Source: Azolla caroliniana | Lineage: Eukaryota; Plantae; Polypodiophyta | Direction: 5' to 3' | Assembly: GCA_043228905.1 (NCBI GenBank) | Contig: JBHGNT010000007.1 | Location: 7,936,001 to 8,000,000, forward strand | DNA length: 64,000 nt | Shown: piece by piece, positions 26,308 to 58,860 of the stretch | Layout of the letters: each line of letters begins with the position of its first letter | Numbering within the stretch: position 1 is the stretch's first letter | Position numbers and translations under genes: made by a program | The notes under the pieces: generated by a model | Seen by the model: only the letters and a program-made list of their open reading frames with translations | What the model was told of the DNA's origin: nothing | Database searches by the model: none

Positions 26308-26470
26308 TATTCGTTTGTTACAGAACAACCAATACACTTTTGATGTAGATCCAGAAATAACAAAGGTTGAGATGAAGAAGTGGGTTGAACTTTTCTTCAA
26401 CGTCGAAGTGAGAGGCATTAATAGTCTTTGATTACCTGGCACAAAGAAGAAACAAAAAAAGACAAATAGG
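26308..26470 (+). pseudogene. rpl23: Plastid rpl23 fragment (NUPT)
   Basis: [43 protein letters not shown] matches plastid L23. Confidence 0.85.
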
Positions 26471-28374: not shown

Positions 28375-28427
28375 TAGTCTAATGGTAAGAGCTCGACCCA
28401 TGTAGCATAAGGTCATGGGTTCGAGTC
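28375..28427 (+). promoter_or_regulatory. tRNA-like Pol III A-box/B-box cassette within an LTR
   Basis: A box TAGTCTAATGG (28375-28385), B box GGTTCGAGTC (28418-28427). Confidence 0.6.
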
Positions 28428-29864
28428 TTGCCATATCATGACAGGATGTGTACCCTACCACAAGGAGGGACAAACTCGGTGGCTCACATGGTGAACGCGA
28501 TGAACAAAGTGCTCAGGGATTGTATCCCGGACATCACCATGCCATTCTTAAACGACATCCCGATCAGGGGATGCCCGGTGGAGGAAAAGGACGAGACAAT
28601 CGGACCGGACGAATGTCGGAATTTCGTGGCGACTCACATCAATGATTGCGAGAAGGTGCTACAGAGACTAGAAGGCGCGAGGCTTAGCTTCTCCGGGGAA
28701 AAATCGGCCTTCGGGCAATCAGAGATCATGGTCGTCGGGCACCTATGCGAACCATACGGTCGGAAACCGTCTCCGGCCAAGGTGGAAGCCATCTCCACGA
28801 TGTAGCATAACTGCAATTCGGTTACAGAGGTTCGGAGATTCTTGGGAGCATGCGCGTTCTACCATATCTGGATCCCGCATTACGCCCACGTTGCGGAGCC
28901 GCTGTATGGGTTGCTGAAGAAAGGGCGTAAATTCGAGTGGGGAGACGAGCATACAGAGTCAATCTGAAAGATGAAGGAAGCACTTGCCACGGCACCGGTG
29001 CTCCGAAAGGCTGTCTACCGCAAAGACGCTCCGATTTACGTAACCATAGTCACGAGTCCGACCGGGATCAGATGGGTGATCAACCAAGAGGATGACGTTG
29101 GCATGAGGTTCCCCATCCGGTTCGGCGCGAAGGTCCTCAGTGAGCGACAGCGAGGATACGCCCAGGTTAAACGTGAACTCTGGGGTATCGTTTCGGCGGT
29201 GAAGGCCGATAAAGACTACCTGATCAGGATAGCGGTAATAATAGAGACAGACTGCCTTCCGATTCTCCGCATGGTTTCCGGATGCGCGACGCCGGACCTG
29301 GCAATGCTCAGGTGGATAGCGTACATCAAGTCCCTGAATCCGGATATACAACACATTTCCGAAAAAGACAATGCCATGGCCGACATGCTCTCAAGGGGGA
29401 GGTTCAAAAACGAGGACGGCATGGTTTCGGAGGACGAGGAAGTCGGCGTAGATTTCTTCGAGGCGACATACATGACAACCAGAAAGGGGAGTACTCTAAC
29501 GCTTAACGAATTCGACAAGAGCAAGTATGACGGGGAGTGGCTCCAGATCGGCGGGCTCCTGAAAACAATGACACCGGACGCGGCGTGGACAAAGGAAGAG
29601 ACCAATCGGATCCGAAAGAAAGCGTACCGATTCTTCCTTCGGGACGGGTACATATGGAAGCACCCGAAGAAGAGGGACGACATCCTGCTCCGAGTGGTCG
29701 CGAAGAAGGAGGAACAGGAGGAATTGTTGGAGGCCTACCACGAGAGTCCCTGGGCCGGACAACGCAGAACGTGGGCCACGTTCGAGAAGCTAAAGGGGAA
29801 GTATTGGTGGCCAAGACTGTACCGGGACGTGCATCGGTTCGTGACGACTTGCGAAAGCTGTCAG

Positions 29865-32414
29865 ATGCATACAAAAAGGAGATGAATCAGAGGGACGTGT
29901 CCAAAGCACGTCAAATCGCAAGTTTCAAGAGAGTGGTCGCCAACATTGTCCAAAAGCGCGTCGTCGAGCTTCAAGAAGGGAAGACAACATGGTCCGGATT
30001 CGAGAAAGCAATACTAGCGGAGTTCGCAACAGAAGATTTGTTGAGGATGACTCGACATGCTTTGATGAAGTGGATAGAAAAGAAAAATAAGAAGATGAGC
30101 TCCTCGAGGGTGTACGACAAGTTCGACCAAATGTTTAGTCGTCTCCCCAACATGGACCAAGTGCTACTTGAGGAGGACAAGACTTTGTACTTCTTGAAAG
30201 CCGTGGACATGAAGGATAGACGAGAGTTGGGGACTCTCCTCGAAGATGATACCCAAGCGAACGGTCTTGTGGCAGACTAGGTTGCGGTGAAGCAAGCATG
30301 CAACAAGATTGACATGCGTCATCGATGGCTCCATGATATTGACTTGGTAAGACCAAGCATAGAAAAAGCAAAACCATCTAAAGAAGTTGAGACGCCTAAA
30401 CAACGCATCCAAAATGAAAAGAAGATTGATGATGACTCGAGGGCGATGACAGCCATTTCAAAGGAGGTCGAATGTTTTGGAACATACGTTGTGTTCGAAA
30501 CAACGTATGATGGAACAAGCCAAATCAAAGCTTGCATCAATGGAGATAAAGAGTGTGAGGCTAGTGTAATTGAGGATCTAGCCGCTAAAGACGACATAGA
30601 GGAGGTGACTATGAACAAGACCACAAACGTCGACAACGACCATGGCCGGATTTTCTCCACACATGCTCTAGAGACTTGGGCAGTTGCGTCAAAGAACCAA
30701 CGTGAGACCCAAGACACGGAAGGTGTCGGCAAGGAGCCGAAGGTCGAAACGAATACATGCGACGAAGAGAGAAGCATGATCGAAGCTTGTTTGATCAAGA
30801 GGTTCAATGGGTACGAGGCCCATGAGGTTGAAGAGATAGCCACGAAAAATGACATCGAGTTGGAGATAGCTACGAACGAGTGGATGGTGGATGGTCATGT
30901 GGAGACTTTCCCAACACCTCATCTAGAGACTTGGGCAATTGCGTCTGAGAACCAACGTGAGACCCAAGAGATGGATGGTGGCGAAAAAGAGAAGGACCAA
31001 GATAATACCGCCAATGACGACGGCCAATTTTTCTCCACACTTGTTCCAAAGACTTGGGCAATTGCGTTCGAGAACCGATGTAAGACCCAAGAGACGGAAG
31101 GTGGCGGCTGGAAATCAAAGGAGCGAAACGATGATGAGGAGGATGACCACAGACGAAGGAATCCCTCCACACTGGTTCTGGAGACTTCGGCAGTTGTGCC
31201 CGAGAGCGAACATAAGACCGGAGAGATGGAAGGTGGTGGCGAGGAGATGAGGGTCGAAGCCAACGCATACGAAGGAATGGTGGACAACAAGGACACAAAA
31301 AACAAAGCTATAATAGAGTTCCATGAAGATCCAGATAGAGGCAAGAAAAGAAGAACCGGAATACAATTCGGATGGAAGATGACGCGGTTTGTATTCTGAC
31401 TCGAATGGAAGCTGACCCGAACGAGAGTTGATCAACCAGGGCCGACCCAACCGAAAACCGGATGTAAACTGACCCGGACGAAAGTCGATCGTCTGAGTCC
31501 GATTCGACTGAATGCGAATCTGGATGAAGGCCGACCAAGCCAGAAGCTGGTTGGTCGAGACAGACAGAAGATGAATCGGCCTAGACGGAGGTCAAAGCAG
31601 GGTTTAGGGTTTAGGGTAGAAGAAGGCCAAGACCCGGACATGGTCCGATGTGGTGAAGGGCCTAGAACCGGAAGACGAATCGGGAGCGACCGATTCAAAC
31701 AAGAGCTGGAACGAATCGGAGACAACCGATTCGGTTCAACAGACGGATTCAGAAGAACCGGATCAATTCAAGGCCAAGAGGACGAGAAGGCAGCGAAAGT
31801 CGACGTCAACACGAAGGAATCGGCGAATCGCCAAGCGCCGAAGTCACAATAGCAAGGGAGCTGAATTGGACATGTTGAGCAGACAAGCCGACCGAGGAGG
31901 TCGAGGTGCGCAGAATCAGAAGGGTCGCGGCAAATGGGACCGGACTGGACGAGGAGCGGGAGCGAGGCGGAGTGACGCCAGAAGGAGCCGGGTGGAAGAA
32001 CCGCATGCAATGGAGATTGACACTACGACCAACCTCAAGTTGAGCTTGAGGGGGAGTGTTGAGCGGCAAGCTCAACCAGATCCGGATCGGCATCCAGAAG
32101 GATGAGCCGGATCAGTGAGCAAGTGAGCAAGTGAGCAAGTGAGCCGGTGAGATAGGGAGCCGGTTAGCTGGATCAAGCAGTGACCGGAAGCTTAGTAGCA
32201 ACCTAGACTACTAGGTAGTTAATGTCTCGTACTTAGTGTCAGACGCTCATGTGAGCATTGAAGTACATTGTACTTCTATCAGTCCTCTTAGGACTTGTAT
32301 AAATAGTGTTGTTGAGCTCGTTGTATATATAGAGAATTTTACAGAGTTGTTGATAATAGATTTAAGTTGTTTCTGCTCTTTCTATGTCTCTTTTGCGTAC
32401 CTTCTGTGTGTTAA

Positions 32415-32445
<31 letters not shown>

Positions 32446-32496
32446 TGCTATCCGACTAAGCGGGTTGTCTAACGCTTCCGCACCTTCGTTTTTACA
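29865..32496 (+). mobile_element. Chimeric module copy 1: Gypsy gag part + acidic repeat ORF (30287-31399) + Copia 3' UTR, PPT and LTR (32057-32496)
   Basis: Near-identical to 57345-59917; LTR matches the Copia LTR at 51373-51580; PPT TTGAGGGGGAG. Confidence 0.85.
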
Positions 32497-33408
32497 GTTG
32501 TGCCATATGAGCCAGAAGGGAATGCGAAGACTTGCCGAAGATAACCTCATTCCAGAGGTGAAAGACGTGCATCTTAAGAAGTGTATCGATTGTTTGGCTG
32601 GCAAGAGAAACCGAACCTCCTTTCAGACAAGACCACCGATCAGACAGAATGCACTGCTGGAACTTGTGCATATCGATGTATGCCAAGCGGACATGAAGTC
32701 ACATGTCGGATCGCAGTACATCATGACGTTCATAGATGACCACAACCGGAAGTTGTGGGTTTCACCATTGAAGATGTTGAAAAAAAACCAGTGCTCGGCC
32801 ACAACCGAGGAATAGGATTAACTCACAGAAAACAGGAAATACAAAATGCACAAAGATAATAGAGAGAAGAGTACACAGGATGTTTTACGTGGAAAACCCT
32901 AAATGGGAAAAAACCACGGGAGTGCAAGACTCCAAACCAAAACTATGCACAGAGCAATATACAATGGCGAGCTGCAAGGCGACTACCTTGAGCTTGCTAT
33001 CCTCGCCACAGGCGGCGGTATGACACAGAGGCAACGACCTCTTCGTATCTCTCTCTCTCTCTCTCTCGGCTGCTCTCACTTCGCATAAAAATGAGCAACA
33101 ACAATAAACTGTTTGCCCTAAGTCATATTTATACACATATGACTTTCGGGCTATTTACAAATATAGCCTCAAGGGCTCTTGGCAAACATATTCACAAATA
33201 TGTCCCCGCATCCGGATCTCTCTCCGGGTACATACATCATCCGGCTCCGTAGCCGGGTCTTCGTCATCCGGCTCCGTAGCCGGGTCTTCGTCATCCGGCT
33301 CCGTAGCCGGGTCTTCATCATCCGGCTCCGTAGCTGCAACCAGGCTTGCCGTCATTCATCTCCGGACATCCCATCCGGAGGGACCGCAAATCCCAACAAA
33401 CTCCCCCT

Positions 33409-36400
33409 TCACTTCGGCATGGGATGTCTCTCCAATCCGATCCTCTTCCGGCATGCTTCCAGCTTGTCGGGTGTAAGTACCTTAGTCAGCATATCCGACC
33501 CGTTCTCGTCCGTGTGGATCTTCGTCAGCACGAACTCCTTGTCTTCTATCCTTTCCCGGATCCAGTGGTATCTACGCTGGATGTGCTTCGTCCGGGAGTG
33601 ATAGGCCGCATTCTTCGCAAGGTGGATGGCACTCTGACTGTCGCAGTAGAGTCGGTACTCCTCCTGCCGGATACCGAGCTCTCTAATGAAGTCCTTCATC
33701 CATATTATTTCCTTGCCGGCTTCAACAGCCGCCATGTACTCCGCCTCCGTGGTTGACAGTGCAACCGTCTTCTGCAGCCTCGACTGCCACGAAACAGCTC
33801 CCCCTGCATACGTCATCACATACCCTGATGTGGACCGGCTGGTATCTGCATCAGCCGACATATCTGAATCGGTAAAGCCGTCGAGTTCGGGCTTACCGGA
33901 GCCGAATCGGAGGCATACGTTTGTCGTGCCCTTCAGGTATCGGAGTATCCACTTGACCGCGTTCCAGTGTTCTTTGCCGGGATTGCTCATGTACCGGCTC
34001 ACCACTCCGACTGCATATCCTATGTCCGGTCTTGTACACACCATTGCGTACATCAAGCTTCCGACGGCAGAGGCATATGGTACTTTCATCATGTCCTCTT
34101 TCTCAGCCTTTGTCTTGGGGCTTTGCTTGCTGGACAGCTTGCAGTTTGCCGGGAGGGTTGACCCGACCGGTCTTGCTTCCGACATGTTGAACCGGTAAAG
34201 CACCTTTGTCACGTACTTCTCCTGTGACAGCCACAACTGCTTCTTCTTCCGGTCCCGGATGATGTGCATCCCTAGTATTTGCCTCGCCGGACCCAGGTCC
34301 TTCATTGAGAAGGTTCGGTGAAGCGCTTTCTTCAGCGTCCGTATCTTGACCTGGTCCCGTCCGACGATCAACATGTCGTCCACGTATAGGAGGAGTATTA
34401 GAAAGTCTCCTCCTTCGAACTTCTTCACAAACACGCAGTGATCGGACTGCGTTTTGTGGTACCCTTCGTCGGTCATGAAGGAGTCGAACTTCCGGTACCA
34501 TTGCCGGGGAGCCTGCTTCAGTCCGTAAAGGCTCTTCTTCAACCGGCATACCAGGTGCCCCTTCCCTTTCTTCTCGAATCCTTCCGGTTGCTGCATGTAG
34601 ATTTCTTCTTCGAGGTCACCGTGAAGGAATGCCGTCTTCACGTCCATCTGTTCTACTTCAAGGTCCATGCTTGCCGCTATGCTCAGCACCGTCCGGATGG
34701 AGGTCATCTTCACTACCGGGGCAAATATCTCGTCGAAGTCGACGCCCTTCTTCTGCTGAAACCCCTTCACCACGATCCTGGCTTTGTATCTCGGGGGGTT
34801 TCCGGCATCTCCCGGTTTCAGCTTGAACACCCACTTGTTACGGAGTGCCCGTTTTCCTTTCGGCAGCTCCACAAGTTCATATGTGTGGTTCTCATGCAGG
34901 GAATCCATCTCGTCCTGCATGGCACTCAACCACCTGCGGCTCTGGGTGTCATGCTTTGCTTCTTCAAAGCTCTCCAGCTCCCCCTCGTCGGTTAGCAGCA
35001 CGTGCTTTGGTTCCGGAAATCTCCGGGGGGCCCTTCTCTCTCTTAGAGGATATCTCCGTTCCGGAGCTTCGGTAACCGGTTCTTCCGATTCTTCTTCATC
35101 CGAATCCATTTCGGGATCGGGGCCGGTTCCGGTATCATTTTCATCTTCTTCGGCCGGTTCTGTTTCTTCACCGTCTTCGGCCGGATCCTCGAGTGCTAAC
35201 CGGTCCCTTGCCGGTCGGGACTGCTCCTCGTAGAGTTGATCCTCACCGGTCGACTTGGAGCTCTTCATCTTCTTCTCCGACTCCAAGTCGGCGAGTGTCT
35301 TGTCCTCCATGAAGATGATGTCTCGACTCCTGAATATCTTCTTGTCGACCGGGTCCCATACTCGGTAGCCGAACTCGTCGTCGCCGTAACCGAGGAATAT
35401 GCATGGCCGGGTCTTTGGATCTAGCTTTCCTCTCCGGTCCTTTGCCACATGCACGTAAGCGAGACACCCGAACACCTTCAGATGCCGGTAGGACACTTCC
35501 TTACCGGTCCACACTTTCTGCGGCGTGTCTCCGTCCAAAGGTACTGAGGGCGATCTGTTTATCACGTATGTCGCCGTCGACATTGCCTCAGCCCAAAACC
35601 CCTTGGGTAATTCCGCATGCGCCAGCATACTCCGGACCCTCTCCATTATGGTCCGGTTCATCCTCTCGGCCAGCCCGTTCAGTTCCGGCGTCTTCGGCAC
35701 AGTAAACTCGAGCCGGATTCCCTTCGAGCGACAGTACTCCTGGAACTGCCCCCGGTATTCCCCTCCGTTATCCGCTCGTATCGCTTTCAGCTTCTTGCCG
35801 GATTCCCTTTCCACTCTCGCGTGGAGTTCTTTAAAGACGGACAATACTTGGTCCTTTGTCTTCAACGGTGCTGTCCACAGCTTCCGGCTGTGATCATCAA
35901 TGAATGTCACGAAGTACTGGGCTCCGCCGTGTGACTTCGTTTCTACCTGACACACATCAGTATGCACCAACTCCAATGGTGCGCTACGTCTCGTCGGTGG
36001 CCTTGAGTGGAAGGAGGTTCGGTTCTGCTTACCGGCCAGGCAATCGGTGCACTTCTCCAGGTGCACATGCTTCACTGGAATAAGGTTGTCTTTTGCAAGC
36101 CTCTTCATCCCCTTCTCACTCATGTGGCACAGTCTCTTGTGCCACAGCTCACCGGCAGTGTCGGCAGCCACGTTTAGCTCCTCCGGACATAGCCGGGAAT
36201 TCATCAGGTACAGTGTGTTGACCTTCCGGGCCCGAGCCACTATCAGGCTCCCCTTGCTGAACTTCATGACACCGTTCCGGATGCTACCCGTGTAGCCTTC
36301 ATCATCTAGCCTCCCGGCCGAGATCAGGTTCAATCGAACCTCCGGAACGTGTCGGACATCCTTCAGCAGCATTTTGCATCCGGTCGGGGTTGTCAACCAC

Positions 36401-37482
36401 ACGTCTCCTATGCTGGCAATCCGGCACGTACCTCCATTTCCCATCCGGACACAGCCGTGCTCACCGGCTGTGTAGGATGAGAAGTATTTCTTCTCCGGGG
36501 TCAGGTGGAACGACGCTCCGGAATCGACCACCCAGGTCATCTCTTCACCGGCAATGTTCAGCTCCCTCTCTTCGGTAATGAGCATTATCTCTTCTTCACT
36601 TGCCGCGAGTGCCGTCGTTCCTTTCCGGTCCTGCCCTCGCCGATCCGGACCTCTCCGGTCCGTGGCTCCCCGGTATGCACCGTTTCTCTCCGGTGACTTC
36701 TTCGAATCGATGTCGTCGGCTCCGTTGTCTTTTCGGTAATGCCGACAATTCTTCCGGAAGTGCCCCGGCTTCCCACAGTGGAAGCATGTGGGCCTTCCTC
36801 TTGACTGCGACCGGGTCCCCGACTTCTCCCGTCTTTGAGGACTCCGGTTCCATTGTCTTCCCCGATCCGATTCGGTAAGCAGCGCCTTCGAGTCGGAGGC
36901 CGGTTCTTTATCTCTCCGACGCGCTTCTTCATTTAGAATACTTGTCTTTACCGTTTGTAGAGACAAGTTATCTTCGGTGCAGGAGGTGCTGAGAGTCACC
37001 ACCAAGTTCTCCCAGCTTTCCGGCAATGTACACATCAGAATGATGGCTTGCATTGCATCCTCCAACGGGAACTTGATCGCCGCAAGCTGGTTCACGAATC
37101 CCATGAACGTGCTCACGTGTTCCACCATATTCTCGCCGTCCCGGTACTTGAGGTTCACTATCTTCCTCATCAGGGAGGTCCGGTTCAACGCATTCTTCCT
37201 CTCGTAGAGGCCCGCCAGCTTCTTCCACATCTCATATGCGTTGGTGTCGTTCGCCACATGTTGTAGGACGCTTACATCGACATATTGCCGGATCGTCGCT
37301 ACGGCTTTCCGGTTCAGGAGCTTCCACTCCGACTCTATTACCCCCTTGGGTATCTCGGCATTGTCGATCGGTTCATACAGGTCTCGGACGATGAGAAGGT
37401 CTTCCATCTTTATCTTCCAGTCGGCGTAGTTCTGTGAGTTCAACACCATCATGCCCGGAGGCCCACTACCGCCGCCTTCCAT
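33409..37482 (-). CDS. Copia gag-pol polyprotein, 1357 aa, uninterrupted (gag, CCHC knuckle, protease, integrase, RT, RNase H)
   Basis: CFHCGKPGHFRKNC, WVVDSGAS, LWHKRLCH..C..C, VHTDVC/RADNGGEY/NGLAER, QMDVKTAFLHG, LLYVDDM, SRTKHIQRRYH; first ATG after the PBS is at 37482. Confidence 0.96.
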   Translation of the reverse strand: MEGGGSGPPGMMVLNSQNYADWKIKMEDLLIVRDLYEPIDNAEIPKGVIESEWKLLNRKAVATIRQYVDVSVLQHVANDTNAYEMWKKLAGLYERKNALNRTSLMRKIVNLKYRDGENMVEHVSTFMGFVNQLAAIKFPLEDAMQAIILMCTLPESWENLVVTLSTSCTEDNLSLQTVKTSILNEEARRRDKEPASDSKALLTESDRGRQWNRSPQRREKSGTRSQSRGRPTCFHCGKPGHFRKNCRHYRKDNGADDIDSKKSPERNGAYRGATDRRGPDRRGQDRKGTTALAASEEEIMLITEERELNIAGEEMTWVVDSGASFHLTPEKKYFSSYTAGEHGCVRMGNGGTCRIASIGDVWLTTPTGCKMLLKDVRHVPEVRLNLISAGRLDDEGYTGSIRNGVMKFSKGSLIVARARKVNTLYLMNSRLCPEELNVAADTAGELWHKRLCHMSEKGMKRLAKDNLIPVKHVHLEKCTDCLAGKQNRTSFHSRPPTRRSAPLELVHTDVCQVETKSHGGAQYFVTFIDDHSRKLWTAPLKTKDQVLSVFKELHARVERESGKKLKAIRADNGGEYRGQFQEYCRSKGIRLEFTVPKTPELNGLAERMNRTIMERVRSMLAHAELPKGFWAEAMSTATYVINRSPSVPLDGDTPQKVWTGKEVSYRHLKVFGCLAYVHVAKDRRGKLDPKTRPCIFLGYGDDEFGYRVWDPVDKKIFRSRDIIFMEDKTLADLESEKKMKSSKSTGEDQLYEEQSRPARDRLALEDPAEDGEETEPAEEDENDTGTGPDPEMDSDEEESEEPVTEAPERRYPLRERRAPRRFPEPKHVLLTDEGELESFEEAKHDTQSRRWLSAMQDEMDSLHENHTYELVELPKGKRALRNKWVFKLKPGDAGNPPRYKARIVVKGFQQKKGVDFDEIFAPVVKMTSIRTVLSIAASMDLEVEQMDVKTAFLHGDLEEEIYMQQPEGFEKKGKGHLVCRLKKSLYGLKQAPRQWYRKFDSFMTDEGYHKTQSDHCVFVKKFEGGDFLILLLYVDDMLIVGRDQVKIRTLKKALHRTFSMKDLGPARQILGMHIIRDRKKKQLWLSQEKYVTKVLYRFNMSEARPVGSTLPANCKLSSKQSPKTKAEKEDMMKVPYASAVGSLMYAMVCTRPDIGYAVGVVSRYMSNPGKEHWNAVKWILRYLKGTTNVCLRFGSGKPELDGFTDSDMSADADTSRSTSGYVMTYAGGAVSWQSRLQKTVALSTTEAEYMAAVEAGKEIIWMKDFIRELGIRQEEYRLYCDSQSAIHLAKNAAYHSRTKHIQRRYHWIRERIEDKEFVLTKIHTDENGSDMLTKVLTPDKLEACRKRIGLERHPMPK

Positions 37483-37974
37483 TTTCTGTGTTACCGTGCT
37501 CTGATACCACTTTGTTGAAAAAAAACCAGTGCTCGGCCACAACCGAGGAATAGGATTAACTCACAGAAAACAGGAAATACAAAATGCACAAAAATAATAG
37601 AGAGAAGAGTACACAGGATGTTTTACGTGGAAAACCCTAAATGGGAAAAAACCACGGGAGTGCAAGACTCCAAACCAAAACTATGCACAGAGCAATATAC
37701 AATGGCGAGCTGCAAGGCGACGACCTTGAGCTTGCTATCCTCGCCACAGGCGGCGGTATTACACAGAGGCAACGACCTCTTCGTATCTCTCTCTCTCTCT
37801 CTCTCGGCTGCTCTCACTTCGCATAAAAATGAGCAACAACAATAAACTGTTTGCCCTAAGTCATATTTATACACATATGACTTTCGGGCTATTTACAAAT
37901 ATAGCCTCAAGGGCTCTTGGCAAACATATTCACAAATATGTCCCCGCATCCGGATCTCTCTCCGGGTACATACA

Positions 37975-38100
37975 TCATCCGGCTCCGTAGCCGGGTCTTC
38001 GTCATCCGGCTCCGTAGCCGGGTCTTCGTCATCCGGCTCCGTAGCCGGGTCTTCGTCATCCGGCTCCGTAGCCGGGTCTTCATCATCCGGCTCCGTAGCT
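37975..38100. repeat. 27-bp tandem repeat in LTR U3 (one more unit than the copy at ~33237-33335)
   Basis: Unit TCATCCGGCTCCGTAGCCGGGTCTTCG. Confidence 0.95.
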
Positions 38101-40028: not shown

Positions 40029-40067
<39 letters not shown>

Positions 40068-40966: not shown

Positions 40967-41695
40967 TGTCGTGCCTTTCGGCTCCGGATCGTTGCGTGAG
41001 TCGGGTGGGAACCACTGGGGTTTTGGACTAGGAAGAGGAGAGTTTTAAGGCTAATAAGAATATAAATATGTTGTAAGAAAGAGTTATAGCAAACTCGTGA
41101 ATCCCACGAGTGTATTGTATTAGATTAATCAATATGAATATAAGAATATAAACTTCGGTTGAAAGAGAATGATATAGAATTCTCGTGAATCCCACGAGTA
41201 TAGTTTATTAATTGGTGTTTTTTAGAAACATATCTAGTTTCCAAATATTTTTCACACACAATTACATTGTGCTCCCCATCCTTATGTAGTGATAAGGAAG
41301 TCTTAGTAATCCATGCTTTTTCTCTAACTATAGACCCCATGCTTTTCCTATAGATAGACTATATGCTTTATCTAAAGTGATCATGCTTTTTTCTAACTTG
41401 TGCGTTTTTTATCATGCACGCTAGATTTTTATGTGTAGCTTTTTCTTTTGTTATGCGTTTTTCTAATGTTTATCCTAGCGTGAATTTACCTTTCTATGTG
41501 GGACATCTATGCTTTAACACTAATGAAATGCTAGTGTAATGGTAAGACATTACATTATTAACATGGAGGTGCAAGGTTCGAATCTTGCCCTATGCATGTT
41601 CCATTTATTTTGCTATTTTCTTCTATTTCTTCATTTTTTTATTGAATCTAATACTATATACGTTTTTCACGTAGTGTACAAAATACACTACGACA
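40967..41695 (-). mobile_element. Solo LTR (Gypsy-type), 4-bp TSD GCGG, with tRNA-like cassette at 41532-41589
   Basis: TGTCG...CGACA termini; removal restores host gag EQNVRHNQN; orientation inferred from end similarity to 45837 and 55913. Confidence 0.85.
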
Positions 41696-47000: not shown

Positions 47001-50000
47001 ATTAGCAAACTTTTTGTAATCCCAATCTTGGGATTAATTGTAATCTTTCTTTCTACTTGTTAATGAAATTTGTTAATCTTTCTCATTTCTTAGTACATAA
47101 ATACACGAATTTGATATCCTCTAATCAAAGGCCCCGGGGTCTTGCCTCAACGTTCACGTATTTTCGCGACACCGTGGAGGAATGTCGTCTTCACGTCTAA
47201 CTGCTCTACCTCGAGGTTCATGTTTGCCGCTATGCTCAGCACCGTCTGGATGGAAGTCATCTTTACTACCAGGGCAAATATCTCGTCAAAGTCCACGTCC
47301 TTCTTTTGCTGGAACCCCTTCACCACGATCCTGGCTTTGTATCTCGGGGGGTTACCGGCATCTCCTGGCTTCAACTTGTACACCCACTTATTCCGGAGTG
47401 CCCGCTTTTCTTTTGGCAACTCCACCAATTCATACATGTGGTTCTCATGCAGGGAATCCATCTCGTCCTGCATGGCACTTAACCACTTGCGGCTATGGGT
47501 GCCCTCCTTTGCTTCTTCGAAGCTTTCCGGCTCCCCCTCATTGGTTAGCAACACATGCTCTGGATCCGGAAATCTCCGGGGGGGCCTTCTCTCTCTGAGA
47601 GGATATGTCCGTCTTTGGCTTTCGGCAATCGGCTCCACTGTTCGTTCTTCATCTGAATCCGATTCAGGGTCTTGGCCGGTTCCAGTTTCTGCTTCTTCTT
47701 CTTCTTCTTCTGCCGGTTCGGTATCCTCACCGTAACCGGCAGGTTCTTTGAGTGTCAACTAGCTCCTAGCCGGGTAGGTCCGAATCTCGTCAAACCGATC
47801 CTTACCGATCGACTCAGAGTTCATTATCTTCTTCTCCGACTCCCAGTCATCAAAGGTCTTGTCCTCCATGAAGATAATATCTCGACTCCGGAAAACCTTC
47901 TTGTCGACTGAATCCCACACTCGGTAACCAAACTCATCATCGCTGTATCCGAGGAATATGCAAGGCCGGGACTTTGGATCAAACTTTGCTCTCCGGTCCT
48001 TTGCCACATGCACGTAAGCGAGACACCTGAACACCTTCAGATGCCGGTAAGACACATCCTTACCGGTCCATACTTTCTGCGGTGAGTCTCCGTCCAAGGG
48101 TACTGAGGGTGATCTGTTTATCACATACGTCGTGTTACCAGCGCCTCAGCCCAAAATGTCTTGGGTAACCTTGCATGTGCCAGCATACTCCAGACCCTCT
48201 CCATTATGGTCCAGTTTATCCTCTCGGCCAGCCCGTTTAGTTTTGGCGTCTTTGGCACAGTAAATTCGAGCCGGATTCCCTTTGAGCGTCAATATTCCTC
48301 AAATTGCCCCCAATATTCTCCCCCATTATCTGCTCGAACCGCCTTAAGATTCCGGCCGGTTTCTCTTTCCACTCTTGCGTGGAGCTCCTTGAAGACGGAT
48401 AACACCTGATCCTTTGTCTTCAACGGTGTGGCCCACAACTTCTGGTTGAGGTCGTCTATTAACGTCACGAAGTATTGCGATCCGGCATGTGACTTCGTGT
48501 CCACTTGACACACATCGGTATGCACCAGCTCCAGTGGTGCATTATGTCTCATCGGTGGCCTTGAGCGGAAGGAGGTCCGATTTTGCTTACCGGCCAGGCA
48601 GTCGGTGCACTTCTCAAGATGCACGTCTTTCACCGGAATGAGATTGTCATCAGCAAGCCTCTTCATCCCCTTCTCGCTCATGTGACACAATCTCTTGTGC
48701 CACAGCTCACCGGTAGTGTCGGAAGCAACATTGACTTCTTCCCGGCATAACCGAGCATTCATAAGGTACAATGTGTTGCCTTTCCGGGCCCGAGCCACTA
48801 TTAGGCTTCCTTTACTGAACTACCGTTCCGGATGCTACCCGTGTAGCCTTCATCATCTAGCCAACCGGCTGATATCAGGTTCAGTCGAACCTCTGGAACG
48901 TGTCAGACATCCTTCAGCAGCAACTTGCATCCGGTTGGTGTTGTCAGCGACACGTCTCCTATGCCGATAATTCGGCATGTCCCTTCATTCCCCATCCGGA
49001 CACAGCCGTGCTCACCGGTTGTGTAGGATGAGAAGCATTTCCGGTCCGGGGTAAGGCGGAACGACGCTCCAGAATCGACAACCCACGTTGTCTCATCGCT
49101 GGCAAGGTTCAACTCACTCTCCTCGGTGATGAGCATCAACTCTTCTTCATTTGCCGCGATTGCCGTTGTTCCCTTCCAGTCCGATCCTCGCTGATCCGAA
49201 CCGTTTCGGTTCGGTGACTTTTTCGAATCGGTATTGTCGGTTCCCTTGTCTTCTGGAAGTCCCTCGGCTTGCCACAATAGAAGCAAGTGGGCCTCCCCCT
49301 TGACTTTGACCGTGTCCCCGACTTTTCCCAGTTTTGGGGACTCCGATTCCTTTGTCTTCCGCGTCCCGATTCGGTAAGGAGCGCTTTGGATTCAGAGCCC
49401 GTATCCTTGTCTTTTCGACGCGCCTCCTCATCTAACAAGCTCGATTTGACTCTTGCTAGGGATAACTATTTTCCTTCAGGCCCGGTGTTGCCCAAAGTGA
49501 CAACTAACGTCTCCCAACTATCCGGGAGGGAACCGAGCAGGAGTAGAGCAAGTACCTCATCGGCGAGAGGTACTTCCAACGAGGTTGCCTAGTGAATCAG
49601 CCCCTGGAAGGCATTCATGTGCTCCGCCATACTGGAGCCATCTTGGTACCGAATTTGCACTAGCTTCCGGAATACCGAAACCTGAGTTTTTGTTCTGAAA
49701 CATAATGCCGATCTTCTCCCAGAGCACATGAACCTTACTCTCCTCATTAAAGTTGTTGTACAGGCTCATGTCGATGAAGCACCGTATGTACGTCGTTGTC
49801 TTCATGTGCATCACCTCCCATATCATGGCATCGATCTTGTCTGGTCTCTTGTCCCCACTGAACCGGCAACCAAAGATCTTTAACCACGAGCATGTCCCTC
49901 ATCTTTGACTTCCACACTGAATAGTTGGGGCCGGTGAGCTTGAACATGCCTCCCAACGAATCTTCCATTTTTCTGTGTCATTTCGCTATGATACCAGTTT

Positions 50001-50292
50001 GATAGGAATATGCGGAATAATGCTCGGCCACAATCGAGTCTTCAATCACTTAATGATAATAATAAAAAACACAGAAGAAATGGGCAATGAAGGTAAATGC
50101 ACGAGCACTCGTAAGTGAGAGGGAGTACACAATATGTTAACGTGGAAAAACCCTAAGAGGGAAAAAAAACCACAAGGAGCCCACTGACTCCAAACTATCA
50201 CTATGTCAAGGAATACAACAAGGAGGGGCATAGAGGCAACGACATCGTGCTTACAGTCTTCGCCTGGCGGCAGTTACAACAGAGACTTACTA

Positions 50293-50338
<46 letters not shown>

Positions 50339-51372: not shown

Positions 51373-54300
51373 ATTCATCTCTTAGGACTTGTATAAATAG
51401 TGTTGTTGAGCACATTGTATATACAAAGAATTTTACATAGTTGTTGATAATAGATTTAAGTTGTTTCTGCTCTTTCTCTGTCTCTTCTGCGTACCTTCTG
51501 TGTGTTAATCTCTCTCTCTCTCTCTCTGTTGCTATAAGGCTAAGCGGGTTGTCTAACGCTTCTGCACCTTCGTTTCTACATGGTATCAGAGCGCGAGGGT
51601 TGAGAACCTCTACAGCCGACATAAGCATCTGAAGACAAACCCTAAGACCCGGTAAGAACAGAAAGAGAAGTAATGGACACAGGAATGGCTAGCTCGCTCC
51701 CGGTGGAGAAGCTCGACATATCCAACTACGCATCTTGGTCATACAAGATGCACCAGTACCTGCTTGGGCATGGTTATTGGAGCTATGTCGACGGAGCTAA
51801 CGACACAACACCTCATGCGGCACACAAGGACTTCCTAGTGTGGGAACAAGCGGCAAGAAAAGTGATGTATTGCTTTGCATCTAGTGTCGGAGACCAGCTG
51901 CTGAGCCATGTCCGAGATGCCAGGATGCCAAAAGAAGCTTGGGGAAACCTGAAGAAGGTTTTCGCGACAAGCACTACGGCCTGGAAGCTGCAACTCCGAA
52001 AGGAGTTGAGCAATGTCTGACAGAAGGACATGTCGATAGCCGATTACACGGCCCGAATCAAAGAGATCTGTGACTCACTTGCCTCTATCAACATCAGTGT
52101 AGAGGAAGATGAGATGGTGCAGATCTGTCTTGGGGGCCTAGCGTCTAAGTTCAGAGCGTTCGGAACGACGGTATGTACAAGGGAGAATAAGCTGTCATTT
52201 TTCGACTTACAGTCAATGCTCCTTGTAGAGGAGAACCACGCCGGCGCATCAACGAGTGCACCCACCGACAACCGGATGTTGTACACGGAGGCGGATCAGC
52301 CCCGTGGGCGTGGTGGACGAGGCGGGTCAGCTCGCACTGGTAGCGGCCAGCAAGAGCAGGACCGAAGGCACAGAGAATGTGCTGACGGTAGTTCCGGACC
52401 CTGCACAAGCAGGGGGAGTCAAGGCGGCGTCGGAGGCTGGCAAGCAAAGGCGGACACGGAATGTTGGTACTGTAGTAAAAAGGGCCACAGAGAAAGTGAG
52501 TGCTGGAAGAAACACGCCGATTCGGACAGATACGGATCCAGCAAGGCTGGTAGAGAGAACCAGCAATACTCGCACTACACAGAAGGATCGGGAGGATCCA
52601 AAACCGGGAAAGCCGGTAAAGGACCAGCCTTGGTGATGAAACACGATGCTAACTCGATGAAGAATACCACTTCCAAATTGGAGGAAGTGTGGTACGTTGA
52701 TTCCGGTGCGTTGAATCCCATGACGAGCCACAAAGAGTGGTTCTCTTTCTTGGAGAAACCGGAACAACCGGGAGTCGTCGAAACCGGAGACAACACTCCT
52801 CACCCAATCGTGCATGTCAAAGAAGTCCCTTTGAGCCACGTCGGACAGAGGGGGAAGCTGATGAACGTATTACACGTTCCGACTATCATGAAGAACTTGG
52901 TGTCAGTCGGTCAGATCGTTGACCAGGGGATGCATGTGCGGTTTACGCACCTTGGGTGCTTCATCGAGGAAGAGGGCCAGATTATTGCGCAAGGGCGCAG
53001 AGATGGGAGGATGTTCATCCTCAACACTAATGACGTTGGCACCTCTTTGTTCGCCAAAGGACAGAAGCTTGAATCAGATATTGATCTCTAGCACAAGCAG
53101 ATCGGCCACGTCAATTACCGGAGGCTTAGACCTGCAAACGAAACAAGTTGTTTTCGGTTTGCCGAAGTTCAGCAGCCGGAAGGCCGAAATTTGTGAAGCC
53201 TGCCAACTCGGTAAGCAACATCGGCTTCCATTCCCCACCGAACGAAACCGTAGCTGTAACAAGCTCGACCTTATTCATTCGGATGTATGGGGACTGGCAC
53301 ATAGTGTTAGTCTTGGCGAGAGTCGGTATTTCGTCTCCTTCATCGACGACTACAACCGAGCCGGCACACGTGGATCTACCTCATCGAGAGGAAGAACGAA
53401 GTCTTCGAGTGTTTCCGGAACCTTCAAAGTTTGGTTTAATGAGAAACGGAGAGGAAGATCAAGTGTCTGCGGTCGGATGGCAGGAAAAAATACTTTTCCG
53501 GCCAATTCAACAGTTATCTGTAGTAGAACGGAATTTGGAGAGAATTCAGTTGCATGTACACACCGGAGCAAAACTGTGTGGCCGAAAGGAAGAACCAATC
53601 GATTGTCAACGTGGCAAGGGCAATGCTAGAGCAGAAGAGCATGCCCCATTTCTACTGGGTTGAGGCGGTCCGGACGGTCGTCTACATTCAAAACCGGATC
53701 GGTGACAAGGTGTCAGCACACGAGCTATATTTCGGGTGCAAGCCGAATTTGAGACACCTTCAGATATTCGGTAGCATTGCATATGTGCATGTACCTGATG
53801 AGAAGCAGAGGAAGCCGGATCCGAAGTCGGAGAAGTGCATCCTAGTCGGTTACTCACATGAGCAAAGGGGGTATAAGTGTTATAACCCCTGAACTAAGTA
53901 GGTCCGAGTAAGCCAAGATGTCGAGTTTGATGAGACGGCATCATGGTACTCCTTACCAACTCCAACTCCCGACGAAGACCCAATTCCGGAAGATGAGGCT
54001 AGTGAGGCCGAGGAGGTCTAGGTAGAAGATGAAGACTTTGGCACTCTAAAAGAGAGTTTGATTTCATTCCAGTTGAGTGGACCGAATGAGTGGCTGAGTA
54101 GGGGTGACCAGTCAGATGAGGAACCGACGAGTAGTGGAGACTCTACCGTGCTCTCCCCGCACGAGGAACCGAGGAGACGGTTCAAGCGCAAAGAGAAGGG
54201 GAAGAAGAAGATGCCGGAATACGAAACCAGCATCTTCTTCTTCATCCTTCTTCGGGAACGATGTCCAAACCGGCCAAGAAGGGCCTCAAACCGGGTAACG

Positions 54301-55912
54301 ATAAGTTACGCCAGTCTTCCCGCCATAAGAACCCTGTGAAGCGGTAGGGGTACAATGAGTACATGGCGCATCACTATGCATACATGACCAAGGTGGCGGA
54401 AGTGCGTGAGCCGGAGAGCTACGCAGAAGCGGCAAAGGACGCAAATTGGCGTGCCGCTATGGAGGAAGAAATGCGGGCACTTGATGCCAACGACACATGG
54501 GACCTAGTTGACCCTCCCCGACACTGTAAATCGATCGGATTTAAGTTGGTGTACAAGGTAAAGTACAATGCCGACGGTTCTGTTAACCGGTACAAGGCCC
54601 GGTTAGTGGCGAAGGGATACGCGTAGACCCACAAAATCGACTACGACGAGACGTTCGCTCCGGTAGCGAAGATGACGACGGTTCGTGTGGTGTTGGCGGT
54701 TGTTGCAACAAGGGGGTGGCATCCTCACCAGATGGACGTGAATAATGCATTTCTTCAAGGCGATCTTTAAGAAGAGGTCTTTATGACCCTACCCCCCTAT
54801 TTCCAGTCGGAGATGAACAAGTCGGTTGTATGCCGACTGAAGAAGTCACTTTATGGCCTGAAGCAAGCCCCCCGAGCTTGAAATGCGAAGATCACGCACA
54901 TGTTGCATAAGATGGGGTTTGCGGCCTCCAAGTCCGACTCTTCGTTGTTCATTTGGCAAGGTCCAGACGGTTTGGTTTGCATCTTGCTATATGTTGATGA
55001 TCTAGTCATCACCGAACCCGGACTCGATGAAATCAGCCGAGTCATGTCCCAATTGTCGGACGCATTTGAGATGAAGGATCTGGGGGACCTTCACTATTTC
55101 CTTGGGATCGAGGTGATCCGAACCCCCGACGGCATATTTCTCTCACAAAGACACTATGTGTTGAATATGTTGTACAAGTTCGGCATGACGGAATGCCCAC
55201 CGATCTCCACACCCTTAGACCAGAACCTGAAGCTTTGTCCTGACCCCATACCGGCTTGCGATGAGAAGCGGTTCCGACAAATCGTTGGAAGCCTTATATA
55301 TTTGACAATCACCCGACCCGACATCAGTTATCTGGTCAGCGTGATCAACCAATATATGCAGAAGCCGATCGTGGAGCACCTTCTGTGCGCGCATCAAATT
55401 TTGCGATATGTGAGTGGCGTGAAGGACCAGGGACTGTTATACCGGCATGGTATAACCAAAGAACTAGTCGGCTACATCGATGCCGACTAGGCCGGTGATG
55501 CATCGGATCGCCAATCCACCTCTGGCTATATCTTTTCCCTTGGTAGCGCGGTTGTTGCATGGAGGAGCAAAAAGTGGCCAACATTGGCCCTACCGTTGCC
55601 ACCTGTGAAGCCATTTGGCTTCGCCGACCCCGATCTTGATCTACTGCGACAACATTAGCAGCATGCAACTCGAAAAGAGCCCTGTATTCCATGCTCACAC
55701 AAAGCACATAGAAGTGCACTACCACTTTGTGCGTGAGCGTGTCCTGAGCGGTGAAGTCGAACTTCGGTATGTTCATATGGATTGGGAACTTGCCGACATC
55801 TTCACCAAACCGCTCGGATCGGACAAGTTGCAACACTTCACCGAAATGCTTGGTGTTCAACATCTTGACGTGCCACACTTGAGGGGGAGAACGGGCAAAG
55901 ACACCAGAACGA
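51373..55912 (+). mobile_element. Degenerate Copia (YKMHQYL family): truncated 5' LTR to 51580, PBS 51581-51592, gag-pol 51673-~55880
   Basis: TGGTATCAGAGC PBS; CWYCSKKGHRESEC, WYVDSGA, IHSDVWG, LLYVDDL, HTKHIEVHYHFVRE motifs with many premature stops. Confidence 0.9.
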
Positions 55913-58860
55913 TGTCATGAAGATTTTCGGCAATGGTGTGAATATCGCATAAAACATACGAAATCGAGTATGAATCATATAAAACAATAATAGTGAAAAT
56001 ACTATTTTAAATATGTTTAATATCTTAGTACAAAAAGATGGAGGTCTGCAAGAGCTTTCGAATGCACCTTACTACATAAGAAACGGACATCTAAGTCTCA
56101 AGTTATGTGGGTAGGAAGTTTGCAAAGGAAAAGAGAAAAATAAAACTATGAAATATCCCACATAGAAAGGAAATGTTTAGGCCTAACTATATAAACAGAT
56201 TGAGATCCATCATAAATCATCTATGTGATAAGAGCACATAATAAATAGCTGGACTTGAGCCACTTTTTGTCTAGATGAACATATGTGGCTAAATCGCCAG
56301 ATGTGGCTAAGTGCCTGAACTGGTTGGTGAAGAAACTCAAACTGGCTGACGATATAACCAGAAACCGCATAGAGCAGGCAATCGGTGACCGAATGCATCC
56401 GACAACCGGTGACTGAACGGATTCGGTGACCGGCGACGGAACCGATGACCGACGATCCGGATGTCGACGGTAACCGGTGGCATCCGGCATCCAGATAGAT
56501 ATATAAATAAATATATATATATGTATACATAAGGAATGCAAGTGTGGATTTGAACCTTGCACCTCCAAGTTGAGAGTCTATAAGCTTACCACTAAGCCAA
56601 GACATTTTCTTGAAATAATATTTTTATCATTATAACTTTACATGTAAATTCTCATACATGAGAGCTAAAATGAGTGACGTGGTTATCATGCACCACATGT
56701 AATACATGAGCGCCAAATGGCAAACATGCATTTTATGCATGTCTTGAACCCTCAAATGCATGAGGGCATCTATAAAAGAGGGGATGAAAAAGATCAAAAG
56801 GGGAATTTTTGTAATGTAAAAATCTTATCAAGAGCTTTATACTTTATATCAAAATTAATATTAAGAAGAAAATTCGTTATCCTTTTGATGATTTACCTTG
56901 TTCTTCAAATCTAAAGTCAAGAGTTCAATCTTAATCTCTCTCTCAATCTAAAATCAAGTTTTCAATCTTATCTCAATCTCTCTCTCTTTCAATCTATCTT
57001 AATTCTTTTCTCGCTAAAGCTTGTGCGTTCTTCGAATCCTTCCGGTACAGAACCCCACCCCGACGGTTCCGCCTCACGATCCGCACGTAGTGATGGATCT
57101 TCACGACATAATTAAGTGGTGAAGCCGATGTGAAAGAGGCGGCAGGAAGGATCAAATCGAGGATCGACCGATACTTGGAGATGGCATCCTCAAGCAATCA
57201 AGCGGGAGATTTCGAAAGGATGATGCTAATCGTCGAACAAATGATGAGATCTCGAGACAACAATTCAAGCGTGGGAAAGGTCGTCGACCGTGTCATTGAG
57301 CTCGAGGGTAAATTTGACGGAAGGAACATTACGGAGTTCCTTGATGCATACAGAAAGGAGATGAATCAAAGGGACGTGTCCGAAGCACGTCAAATCGCAA
57401 GTTTCAAGAGAGTGGTCGCCAACATTGTCCAAAGGCGCGTCGTCAAGCTTCAAGAAGGGAAGACAACATGGTCCGGATTCGAGAAAGCGATACTAGCGGA
57501 GTTCGCAACAGAAGATTTGTTGACGATGACTCGACATGCTTTGATAAAGTGGATAGAAAAGAAAAATAAGAAGATGAGCGCCTCGAGGGTGTATGACGAG
57601 TTCGACCAAATGTTTAGTCGTCTCCCCAACATAGACCAAGTGCTACTTGAGGAGGACAAGACTTTGTACTTCTTGAAAGACGTGGACATGAAGGATAGAC
57701 GAGAGTTGGGGACTCTCCTCGAAGATGATACCCAAGCGAACGGTCTTGTGGCAGACTAGGTTGCGGTGAAGCAAGCATGCAACAAGATTGACATGCATCA
57801 CCGATGGCTCCATGATATTGACTTGGTAAGACCAAGCGTAGAAAAAGCAAAACCATCTAAAGAAGTTGAGACGCCTAAACAACGCATCCAACATGAAAAG
57901 AAGATTGATGATGACTCGAGGGCGATGAAAGCCATTTCAAAGGAGGTCGAATGTTTTGGAACATGCGTCCTGTTTGCAACAACGTATGATGGAACAAGCC
58001 AAATAGAAGCTTGCATCAATGGACATAAAGAGTGTGAGGCTAGTGTAATTGAGGATCTAGCCGCTAAAGATGACATAGAGGAGGTGACTATGAACAAGAC
58101 CACAAACGTCGACAACGACCATGGCCGAATTTTCTCCACACATGCTCCAGAGACTTGGGCAGTTGCGTCAAAGAACCAACGTGAGACCCAAGACACGGAA
58201 GGTGTCAGCAAGGAGCCGAAGGTCGAAACGAATACATGCGACGAAGAGAGAAGCATGATCGAAGCTTGTTCGATCAAGAGGGTCAATGGGTACGAGGCCC
58301 ATGAGGTTGAAGAGATAGCCACGAAAAACGACATCAAGTCGGAGATAGCTACGAACGAGTGGATGGCGGATGGTCATGTGGAGACTTTCCCAACACCTCA
58401 TCTAGAGACTTGGGCAGTTGCGTCTGAGAACCAACGTGAGACCCAAGAGACGGATGGTGGCGAAAAAGAGAAGGACCAAGATAATACCGCCAATGACGAC
58501 GGCATATTTTTCTCCACACTTGTTCCAGAGACTTGAGCAATTGCGTCCGAGAACCGATGTAAGACCCAAGAGACGGAAGGTGGCGGCTGGAAATCGAAGG
58601 AGCGAAACGATGATGAGGAGGATGACCACAGACGAAGGAATTCCTCCACACTGGTTCTAGAGACTTCGGCAGTTGTGCCCAAGAGCGAACATAAGACCGG
58701 AGAGATGGAAGGTGGTGGCGAGGAGATGAGGGTTGAAGCCAACGCATAGGGAGGAATGGTGGCGATTAAGGACACCAAAAACAAAGCTATAATAGAGTTC
58801 AATGAAGAGCCAAATAGAGGCAAGAAAAGAAGAACCGGAATACAATCCAAATGAAAGATG
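55913..58860 (+). mobile_element. Gypsy 5' portion inserted in the Copia 3' UTR: LTR 55913-57108, Trp-like PBS 57117-57133, gag from 57181 continuing past a TAG into an acidic repeat domain
   Basis: TGTCA...CGACA termini; PBS TGGTGAAGCCGATGTGA; KFDGRNITEFLDAYRKEM is homologous to the gag at 24985; antisense tRNA-like cassette at 56546-56599. Confidence 0.82.

What the first reader, a model, noticed from the sequence alone, without database searches (positions are those of the whole stretch)
28375..56599. Three different Gypsy LTRs each carry an antisense tRNA-like Pol III promoter cassette in U3
Seen: A box/B box pairs at tRNA-like spacing at 28375-28427 (+; TAGTCTAATGGTAAG..GGTTCGAGTC), 41532-41584 (+; TAGTGTAATGGTAAG..GGAGGTGCAAGGTTCGAATC) and 56599-56546 (-; TGGCTTAGTGGTAAG..GGAGGTGCAAGGTTCAAATCC). 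None has a proper acceptor or anticodon stem. In all three the cassette is opposite to the inferred element orientation, and in the two with a clear TATA box it lies ~115-220 bp upstream. The hosts include a self-priming element and a Trp-primed element with otherwise dissimilar LTRs. Established: Cassandra TRIMs carry 5S Pol III promoters in LTRs, and TFIIIC-bound B boxes can act as chromatin barriers. Inference: a recurrent, possibly undescribed strategy in which LTRs keep tRNA-derived A/B boxes to insulate their promoter from silencing or to make outward Pol III transcripts.
Basis: partly seen in the sequence, partly recalled or inferred. Interest (0 to 1): 0.7.

Follow-up and report, generated by a model that had tools for sequence, protein, structure and literature searches.

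The report
Backward tRNA promoters in retrotransposon ends
Three families of jumping genes in a non-seed plant carry, in their end-repeats and pointing away from their own promoter, the two promoter boxes of a tRNA gene without the tRNA itself; these likely bind the tRNA-gene machinery and might shield the element from silencing, which is untested.

Summary
Observation confirmed. Three A-box/B-box pairs lie at the stated places, each with starts 43 nt apart; 0 of 300 shuffles reach three. None folds as a tRNA. They are family features, not copy-specific SINEs: 14 of 17 metagenome hits lie in sister LTRs, including LTRs behind the polypurine tract, and contigs of four organism labels cover two of the cassettes. 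Hosts: a self-priming Tcn1-like chromovirus family with an open pol frame, and two Phygy-like LTR families. In family 3, 1 of 21 box positions varies against 20 of 68 neighbours (p 0.015; 0.054 worst case). Corrections: cassettes 2 and 3 are one homologous module, so there are at most two shown origins and orientation bias is unproven; four Phygy-like LTRs in the window lack it. Family 1 adds a long hairpin. Closest known: Helenus TRIMs, which are non-autonomous with sense boxes. Best reading: a captured tRNA/SINE head kept as an outward Pol III/TFIIIC site; the barrier role is inferred only, with no RNA or chromatin data. The scan noted similar LTR-borne boxes in other genomes, none on this DNA.

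The parts
28020..28443 (-). Family 1 (Tcn1-like chromovirus) 5' LTR, 424 bp, TG..CA
   Evidence: Ends, TSD GGATG at 25969-25973 and 28444-28448; 99.4% to the partial sister LTR
28375..28427 (+). Cassette C1: A box 28375-28385, B box 28418-28427; LTR nt 17-69, antisense
   Evidence: 10 sister copies in metagenome loci
28382..28434 (+). Long imperfect hairpin formed by C1 (spacer pairs with the B-box half)
   Evidence: MFE -31.4 kcal/mol, z -5.3; 19 pairs, 95.6% of cells paired in 11 copies, 1 pair with changes on both sides
28254..28261 (-). TATA box of family 1 LTR
   Evidence: same place in L008, L012, L017
28216..28226 (-). Predicted 5' end of the element RNA (self-primer), 11 nt complementary to the PBS
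   Evidence: read directly from the sequence; about 34 nt behind the TATA box
28007..28017 (-). Self-priming PBS of family 1
25974..26308 (-). Family 1 3' LTR, broken before the cassette; plastid-like DNA takes the place of the U3 start and of most of the interior
   Evidence: Ribosomal_L23 match at 26309-26428
40967..41695 (-). Family 2 solo LTR (Phygy-like), in a Copia gag
   Evidence: 4-bp TSD GCGG on both sides; sister LTRs L001, L005 at 88-92%
41532..41584 (+). Cassette C2: A box 41532-41542, B box 41575-41584; 111-164 nt from the LTR 5' end, antisense
55913..57108 (+). Family 3 5' LTR (Phygy-like), composite: 5' part related to the cassette-free LTR at 45837-47171
56547..56599 (-). Cassette C3: A box 56599-56589, B box 56556-56547, antisense
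56771..56778 (+). TATA box of family 3 LTR
   Evidence: also in L004, L014
57117..57132 (+). Trp-type PBS of family 3 (2 mismatches in 14 to the PBS at 24945 and 63712)
   Evidence: the tRNA-Trp label is recalled, and fits Phygy (81% tRNA-Trp)

Best explanation
Each cassette is a tRNA-derived A-box/B-box pair built into the U3 region of a Gypsy LTR family, facing outward, and it is likely kept by selection as a type-2 Pol III promoter (TFIIIC site) that would hold open chromatin on the outer side of the element's Pol II promoter and would act as a barrier to silencing. Shown: family-wide presence in 5' and 3' LTRs, antisense position 115-225 bp upstream of the TATA box, no cloverleaf, variation mostly outside the boxes or at their degenerate positions. 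Inferred: origin by insertion of a SINE head or tRNA gene piece into an ancestral LTR, then copying into both LTRs by reverse transcription, probably twice (family 1; families 2 and 3). Inferred: TFIIIC binds and places TFIIIB on the AT-rich DNA between cassette and TATA box, and Pol III runs away from the Pol II start, so it would not cut across the genomic RNA. Predicted by-product: a 65-95 nt hairpin RNA where a T4 run follows the B box.
For: 14 of 17 pattern hits lie in sister LTRs and none of the 14 plant hits is outside them. L011, L012 and L017 carry the cassette in the LTR behind the PPT. 4829, 4822, 2854 and 1342 contigs of four organism labels lie on the family 1 LTR; cover ends at the LTR end and at most 1% runs on into unlike DNA. 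Family 3, contigs not chosen for their boxes: 1 of 21 box positions varies (A/G at the R position) against 7 of 20 in the spacer and 13 of 48 upstream; p 0.015. Family 1: the listed A-box variants fall on positions 9 (A>G), 11 (T>C) and 12 (any), all allowed by the consensus. C2 and C3 differ at 5 of 21 box positions, all degenerate, while their flanks no longer align. AT content 45-15 nt upstream of the A box is 70-90% in families 1 and 3; T4 follows the B box directly in 8 of 11 family 1 copies and at +76 in 3 of 3 family 2 copies. AT-rich upstream DNA and T runs are features of plant tRNA genes (PMC7544208, passages). TFIIIB/TFIIIC barriers are known in yeast (PMC9540200, passages).
Against: No RNA, ChIP or methylation data were obtained. 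The conservation test is modest: p 0.054 if the one hidden row lies in a box; A box alone p 0.058; the B box lies near the edge of the laid stretch, and contigs of related modules that fit only the B half dilute its variants. The family 1 table shows 40 of 68 rows and none for the B box. Four other Phygy-like LTRs of the window have no cassette, so it is dispensable in that lineage. In family 3 the summed depth is lower at the cassette (27-161k) than between cassette and TATA (400-490k) in run X1; depth is no copy number, but many related LTRs may lack it. The B-box CpG reads CpA in 9 of 17 copies, as expected if it was methylated at times. C1, L002 and C3 have no near T4. CAA sits at the plant position only in 2 of 3 family 3 copies. 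Heterochromatic tRNA clusters of Arabidopsis are silenced despite intact boxes (PMC7544208, passages). The review on plant barriers cites tRNA-gene insulators only for yeast and animals (PMC9540200, passages).
Confidence: 0.45

Rival explanations
1. Passenger relic: a SINE or tRNA piece was inserted once or twice into ancestral LTRs and is carried along; the apparent conservation comes from few master copies, from ascertainment, or from overlap with another signal.
For: Related LTRs do without it; AT- or T-rich runs behind C2 and C3 could be old SINE tails; statistics are borderline; Kojima notes that 'not a few' Repbase LTRs hold tRNA-like pieces (PMC10886601, section 3.1).
Against: Changes gather at degenerate box positions in two lineages; exact 43-44 nt spacing is kept while flanks diverge beyond alignment; the conserved part matches the promoter, not the stems.
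Confidence: 0.25
2. The RNA is what counts: Pol III makes a short antisense hairpin RNA, complementary to the U3 start of the genomic RNA right behind the PPT, that tunes the element's own silencing or reverse transcription.
For: Family 1 hairpin z -2.8 to -5.7 on the cassette strand in 4 of 4 copies and weaker on the other strand; the spacer was free in my pattern yet pairs in 95.6% of cells; families 2 and 3 have an extended T-arm stem (z -1.9 to -3.5).
Against: Only 1 pair with changes on both sides (174 of 500 shuffles reach it); the fold differs between family 1 and families 2/3; this LTR has other strong palindromes; a G/T-rich strand folds better anyway; T4 interrupts the outer stem in most family 1 copies.
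Confidence: 0.15
3. The cassette dampens rather than helps the Pol II promoter (tRNA-gene position effect), or serves as a landing site for elements that insert at Pol III starts.
For: Repression of Ty promoters by neighbouring tRNA genes is recalled, not checked. Earlier scan notes report insertion pile-ups ahead of LTR-borne boxes in other genomes (e1-10420559, e1-10702772).
Against: No insertion ahead of the A box in 16 of 16 copies with upstream DNA (L007 begins 3 nt upstream). The window's broken 3' LTR ends 21 nt ahead of the A box, but at plastid-like DNA with short shared letters, not at an element.
Confidence: 0.1
4. The antisense tRNA-like stretch in U3 pairs with the primer tRNA and helps minus-strand transfer, as recalled for HIV-1 U3 and the split PBS of Ty3.
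For: Position in U3 and antisense orientation fit. The analogies are recalled; searches did not bring up those papers.
Against: Family 1 self-primes and needs no tRNA. The 18 nt of primer read from the window's own PBS match the cassettes at only 2-7 of 18 places. Conservation is at universal box positions, not along an isotype-specific stretch.
Confidence: 0.05

Closest known systems
Helenus TRIMs / TRIMp3 (Kojima 2024, PMC10886601; parts 1-4 of 6 of the text, passages and string counts of the supplement seen)
   Same: tRNA-derived A and B boxes inside LTRs, conserved while the cloverleaf is lost; proposed origin by SINE insertion into an LTR; function untested there too.
   Different: Helenus are non-coding, 311-1263 bp, and the boxes are thought to drive the element's own RNA; in the supplement B-box strings occur 212 times in sense and 14 times in antisense, and the plant family Helenus-1_SMo is sense. 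Here the boxes are antisense, near the LTR 5' end, upstream of a TATA box, and at least family 1 codes for RT, RNase H, integrase and chromodomain.
Cassandra TRIMs (PMC7215508, passages; PMC10886601)
   Same: Pol III promoter inside plant LTRs, also in ferns.
   Different: 5S type-1 boxes (A and C), non-autonomous, transcription runs in sense from the 5S part.
tDNA / B-box chromatin barriers (TFIIIB, TFIIIC) of yeasts and animals (PMC9540200, passages)
   Same: A/B boxes at a border between a promoter and silent chromatin.
   Different: Host loci or SINEs, not LTRs; not shown in plants in the passages read; no binding shown here.
Tcn1 chromoviruses and Phygy non-chromoviruses (Neumann et al. 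2019, PMC6317226; passages and Additional file 5 rows; PMC2864245, passages)
   Same: Family 1: self-priming, chromodomain, 5-bp TSD. Families 2 and 3: Trp-type PBS, 4-bp NCGN TSD.
   Different: No tRNA-like LTR segment is mentioned in the passages read; no RT tree was built here.

Membership tests
Helenus / TRIMp3 | tRNA-derived A and B boxes inside the LTR | tested here: met
Helenus / TRIMp3 | Short non-coding TRIM (under about 1.3 kb) | tested here: not met
   Family 1: 991-residue open pol frame beside the cassette LTR in L012. Family 3: gag-like frame behind the PBS (no Pfam match). Family 2 interior not seen.
Helenus / TRIMp3 | Boxes in the element's sense, able to drive its RNA | tested here: not met
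   All antisense; Helenus strings are sense 212 to 14
Type-2 Pol III promoter | A box and B box at tRNA spacing | tested here: met
   43 nt in all three; 44 in a further family 1 subgroup
Type-2 Pol III promoter | AT-rich upstream DNA, CAA near the start, T run downstream | tested here: inconclusive
   AT 70-90% in families 1 and 3, 63-70% in family 2; CAA at the plant position in 2 of 17; near T4 in 12 of 17 within 80 nt of the A-box start
Type-2 Pol III promoter | TFIIIC/Pol III binding and a transcript | not testable with these tools
   Only contigs were served; both lay calls used DNA runs
tRNA gene | Cloverleaf with acceptor and anticodon stems | tested here: not met
Copy-specific SINE2 insertion | Own TSD and tail, absent from sister LTRs, free copies elsewhere | tested here: not met
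   Present in 14 sister LTRs, 0 free plant copies among 17 hits; a few loose ends show the module with other upstream DNA, so further hosts are not excluded
Tcn1 chromovirus (family 1) | Chromodomain, self-priming, 5-bp TSD | tested here: met
Tcn1 chromovirus (family 1) | Placement in the RT-RH-INT tree | not tested
   No reference set on hand
Phygy (families 2, 3) | tRNA-Trp PBS and 4-bp NCGN TSD | tested here: met
   PBS behind family 3 LTR; TSD of family 2; lineage traits
Phygy (families 2, 3) | Placement in the RT-RH-INT tree | not tested
   No RT linked to these LTRs was obtained
tDNA-type chromatin barrier | Blocks spread of silent chromatin in a box-dependent way | not testable with these tools
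   Needs reporter or chromatin data

The most novel reading that the evidence does not exclude
Protein-coding LTR retrotransposons of two distant Gypsy lineages have independently recruited an outward-facing tRNA-gene promoter into U3 and use host TFIIIC/Pol III as a portable shield for their Pol II promoter, giving a plant genome thousands of mobile tDNA-type insulators and, in family 1, a Pol III hairpin RNA antisense to the element's own 3' end.
Probability: 0.3. Interest if true: 0.8.

Novelty: new variant of a known kind. Interest (0 to 1): 0.52.

Why it matters
Pol III promoters in LTRs are known only as the sense promoters of tiny non-coding elements, and the Helenus paper expects their autonomous partners to use Pol II without sharing such LTR sequence. 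Coding elements that keep a second, outward Pol III promoter beside their TATA box would be a new way to resist silencing. They would also offer a high-copy natural test of whether tRNA-gene-type barriers work in plants, a question that the review read here treats as open. If the boxes are passengers, the finding is an annotation note: LTR-borne pseudo-tRNA boxes.

Tried and rejected
No whole genome is held for this window, so no genome-wide orientation or family count was possible. The pattern found 0 matches in viral contigs. Rfam over the whole window gave only weak microsatellite-type matches. No isotype could be assigned: the anticodon region is unpaired and differs between families. 3 of the 17 metagenome hits (L006, L015, L016) were set aside before family counts: they have no similarity to the window's LTRs and look like heads of unrelated SINE-type repeats; they match the plant cassettes at 31-39 of 54 places, as well as the plant families match each other (26-40), so box-level likeness does not show common descent. 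A single origin for all three is neither shown nor excluded: the family 1 spacer is unrelated to the others, while the 3' flank of C1 resembles that of C2 (p 0.0035, one of 27 comparisons; not seen with L017). The low depth at the A box in both lay calls was not taken as absence: in family 1 an extra base clips the fit. Searches for the HIV-1 and Ty3 analogies found nothing usable. Supplements of bioRxiv preprints were not open; Repbase itself could not be searched, and may hold autonomous LTRs with such boxes.
Full report
Setting. The window holds two genes (1-980; eIF3f at 10210-12290) and then a nest of Copia and Gypsy retrotransposons. An eIF3f exon is 86% identical to a fern protein, 84% to a leafy liverwort and 73% to two mosses, so the host is a non-seed land plant, most likely a fern; this is an inference from one exon. 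No whole genome is held.

Observation. The three A/B pairs are at the stated coordinates, each with 43 nt between the starts of the boxes. A strict scan finds exactly these three; shuffles give a mean of 0.01 and 0 of 300 reach three. No further decayed copy stands out. None is a tRNA: ARAGORN finds 0, and Rfam's tRNA model gives 13.4 bits for C2 only, model positions 8-63.

Hosts. C1 occupies nt 17-69 of a 424-bp LTR (28020-28443, minus strand) with a 5-bp TSD, a TATA box at LTR nt 184 and an 11-nt match between the predicted RNA start and the PBS. The sister locus L012 joins the same LTR to a PPT and a 991-residue frame with RT, RNase H, integrase and chromodomain. These are the traits listed for Tcn1 (self-priming 83%, 5-bp TSD, chromodomain). 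The window's own 3' LTR is broken 21 nt before the A box, where plastid-like DNA begins, so it cannot serve as the sister test. C2 lies 111-164 nt from the 5' end of a 729-bp solo LTR with a 4-bp TSD; C3 lies in a 1196-bp LTR followed by a Trp-type PBS. The 4-bp NCGN TSD and Trp PBS are the traits of Phygy. No tree was built, so both lineage names are by traits.

Family feature or SINE insertion. One scan of metagenome contigs with a pattern covering the three cassettes gave 17 hits. Fourteen lie in sister LTRs at 68-92% identity: 10 of family 1, 2 of family 2, 2 of family 3; three are unrelated SINE-like heads. In L011, L012 and L017 the cassette LTR follows the PPT, so 3' LTRs carry it. This sample is chosen by the boxes, so it shows presence, not frequency. 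Contigs laid at 80% likeness are not chosen that way: 4829, 4822, 2854 and 1342 contigs from four organism labels fit the family 1 LTR, the B-box half is covered about as deeply as the LTR core, cover stops at the LTR end, and at most 1% runs on into unlike DNA. For family 3, 824, 1330, 380 and 214 contigs fit; here the cassette is covered less deeply than the DNA between it and the TATA box, so related LTRs without it or with a diverged form are likely. Of 23 LTRs or LTR pieces that I delimited by eye in the window, 3 have both boxes; four other Phygy-like LTRs and all Copia-type ones have none.

Are the boxes kept? In family 3, places with a variant in 10% or more of the depth in any run number 1 of 11 in the A box (A/G at the R position), 0 of 10 in the B box, 0 of 8 in the variable loop and T stem, 7 of 20 in the spacer and 13 of 48 upstream: p 0.015, or 0.054 if the single hidden row is in a box; A box with the next four bases alone p 0.058. 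The B box lies near the edge of the stretch and may be favoured by how contigs are fitted. In family 1 the table shows 40 of 68 rows; those in the A box are at positions 9, 11 and 12 and respect the consensus; 7 loose-end rows show a subgroup with one extra base behind the A box, 6 of which keep the full box. C2 and C3 differ at 5 of 21 box positions, all degenerate ones, at 9 of 20 spacer positions, and their flanks do not align better than shuffles. Together this is moderate evidence of constraint on a promoter-type motif.

How many origins? C2 and C3 share spacer and variable loop (0 of 2000 shuffles): one module in two related LTR families, at different places relative to a shared LTR motif; L014 shows a second LTR start just ahead of the cassette, so the long family 3 LTR is a composite. 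The family 1 spacer is unrelated to them. There are thus at most two shown origins, and 'all antisense' carries little statistical weight.

Structure. In family 1 the spacer is an inverted copy of the B-box half, giving a hairpin of about 19-26 pairs (z -2.8 to -5.7; other strand -0.8 to -3.8). Across 11 copies 95.6% of cells pair, but only one pair changes on both sides, and the copies fall into two subgroups, so covariation is not shown. Families 2 and 3 keep a lengthened T-arm stem with weaker scores. That tRNA-derived SINE RNAs tend to refold into long stems is recalled, not checked.

Mechanism. The kept positions are those read by TFIIIC, the upstream DNA is AT-rich in families 1 and 3, and T4 follows closely in 12 of 17 copies. 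An outward cassette would put TFIIIB between itself and the TATA box and send Pol III away from the Pol II start. In the 5' LTR it faces the host flank, here nested repeats. I therefore favour a retained Pol III/TFIIIC site with a barrier or open-chromatin role (0.45). Against it: no binding or RNA data; related LTRs lack it; the B-box CpG reads CpA in 9 of 17 copies; and intact boxes do not protect heterochromatic tRNA clusters in Arabidopsis (PMC7544208, passages). Rivals are a passenger relic (0.25), a functional antisense hairpin RNA (0.15), dampening or landing pad (0.10; no insertion ahead of the A box in 16 of 16 copies) and pairing with the primer tRNA (0.05; 2-7 of 18 matches, and family 1 self-primes).

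Known kinds. Helenus TRIMs carry tRNA-derived boxes in their LTRs and are the closest match (PMC10886601). They are non-coding and their boxes are in sense (212 to 14 strings); the paper also remarks that a number of other Repbase LTRs hold tRNA-like pieces, without describing them. These elements fail two defining Helenus features and are not filed there. Searches (listings seen; open-access library only) showed no report of antisense A/B boxes in the U3 of coding LTR elements. Earlier notes of this scan describe LTR-borne boxes and antisense tRNA relics in Gypsy elements of other genomes; none concerns this DNA. They are unchecked leads.

Verdict. Real, family-level and probably constrained; a new variant of a known kind; function open. 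Interest 0.52.

Noticed in passing
window 26309-27690: The interior of the family 1 copy is replaced by plastid-like DNA (rpl23 piece confirmed by Pfam; the rest looks like ycf2, recalled, no Pfam match); the junction with the 3' LTR shares a few letters with the LTR, and the LTR pair is 99.4% identical, so the capture is recent.
   Followed up: partly
window 55913-57108; L014 72-760; window 45837-47171: Composite LTRs: a 5' part shared with a cassette-free LTR is joined to a shorter cassette-bearing LTR; L014 keeps a second LTR start inside.
   Followed up: partly
window 29864-32414 and 57343-59917: A 2.5-kb segment occurs twice at 95%: gag-like frame, coding repeats, PPT, then an LTR that elsewhere (51379-51580) precedes a Met-type PBS; it looks like a Gypsy/Copia chimera.
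   Followed up: no
window 33409-37560 (-), LTRs 32775-33398 and 37513-38163: A young Copia element with a single 1383-codon open frame.
   Followed up: no
window 28195-28335: Two further strong palindromes in the family 1 LTR, one around the self-primer and one upstream of the TATA box; both are among the best covered parts in all four runs.
   Followed up: no
window 56565-56595, loose ends: A few contigs carry the B-box half with a different A box or different upstream DNA, hinting at more LTR families or free copies with the family 2/3 module.
   Followed up: no
L006 788-840, L015 1351-1403 and 2273, L016 3001-3053: Unrelated SINE-like heads with the same box spacing in other metagenome contigs.
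   Followed up: partly
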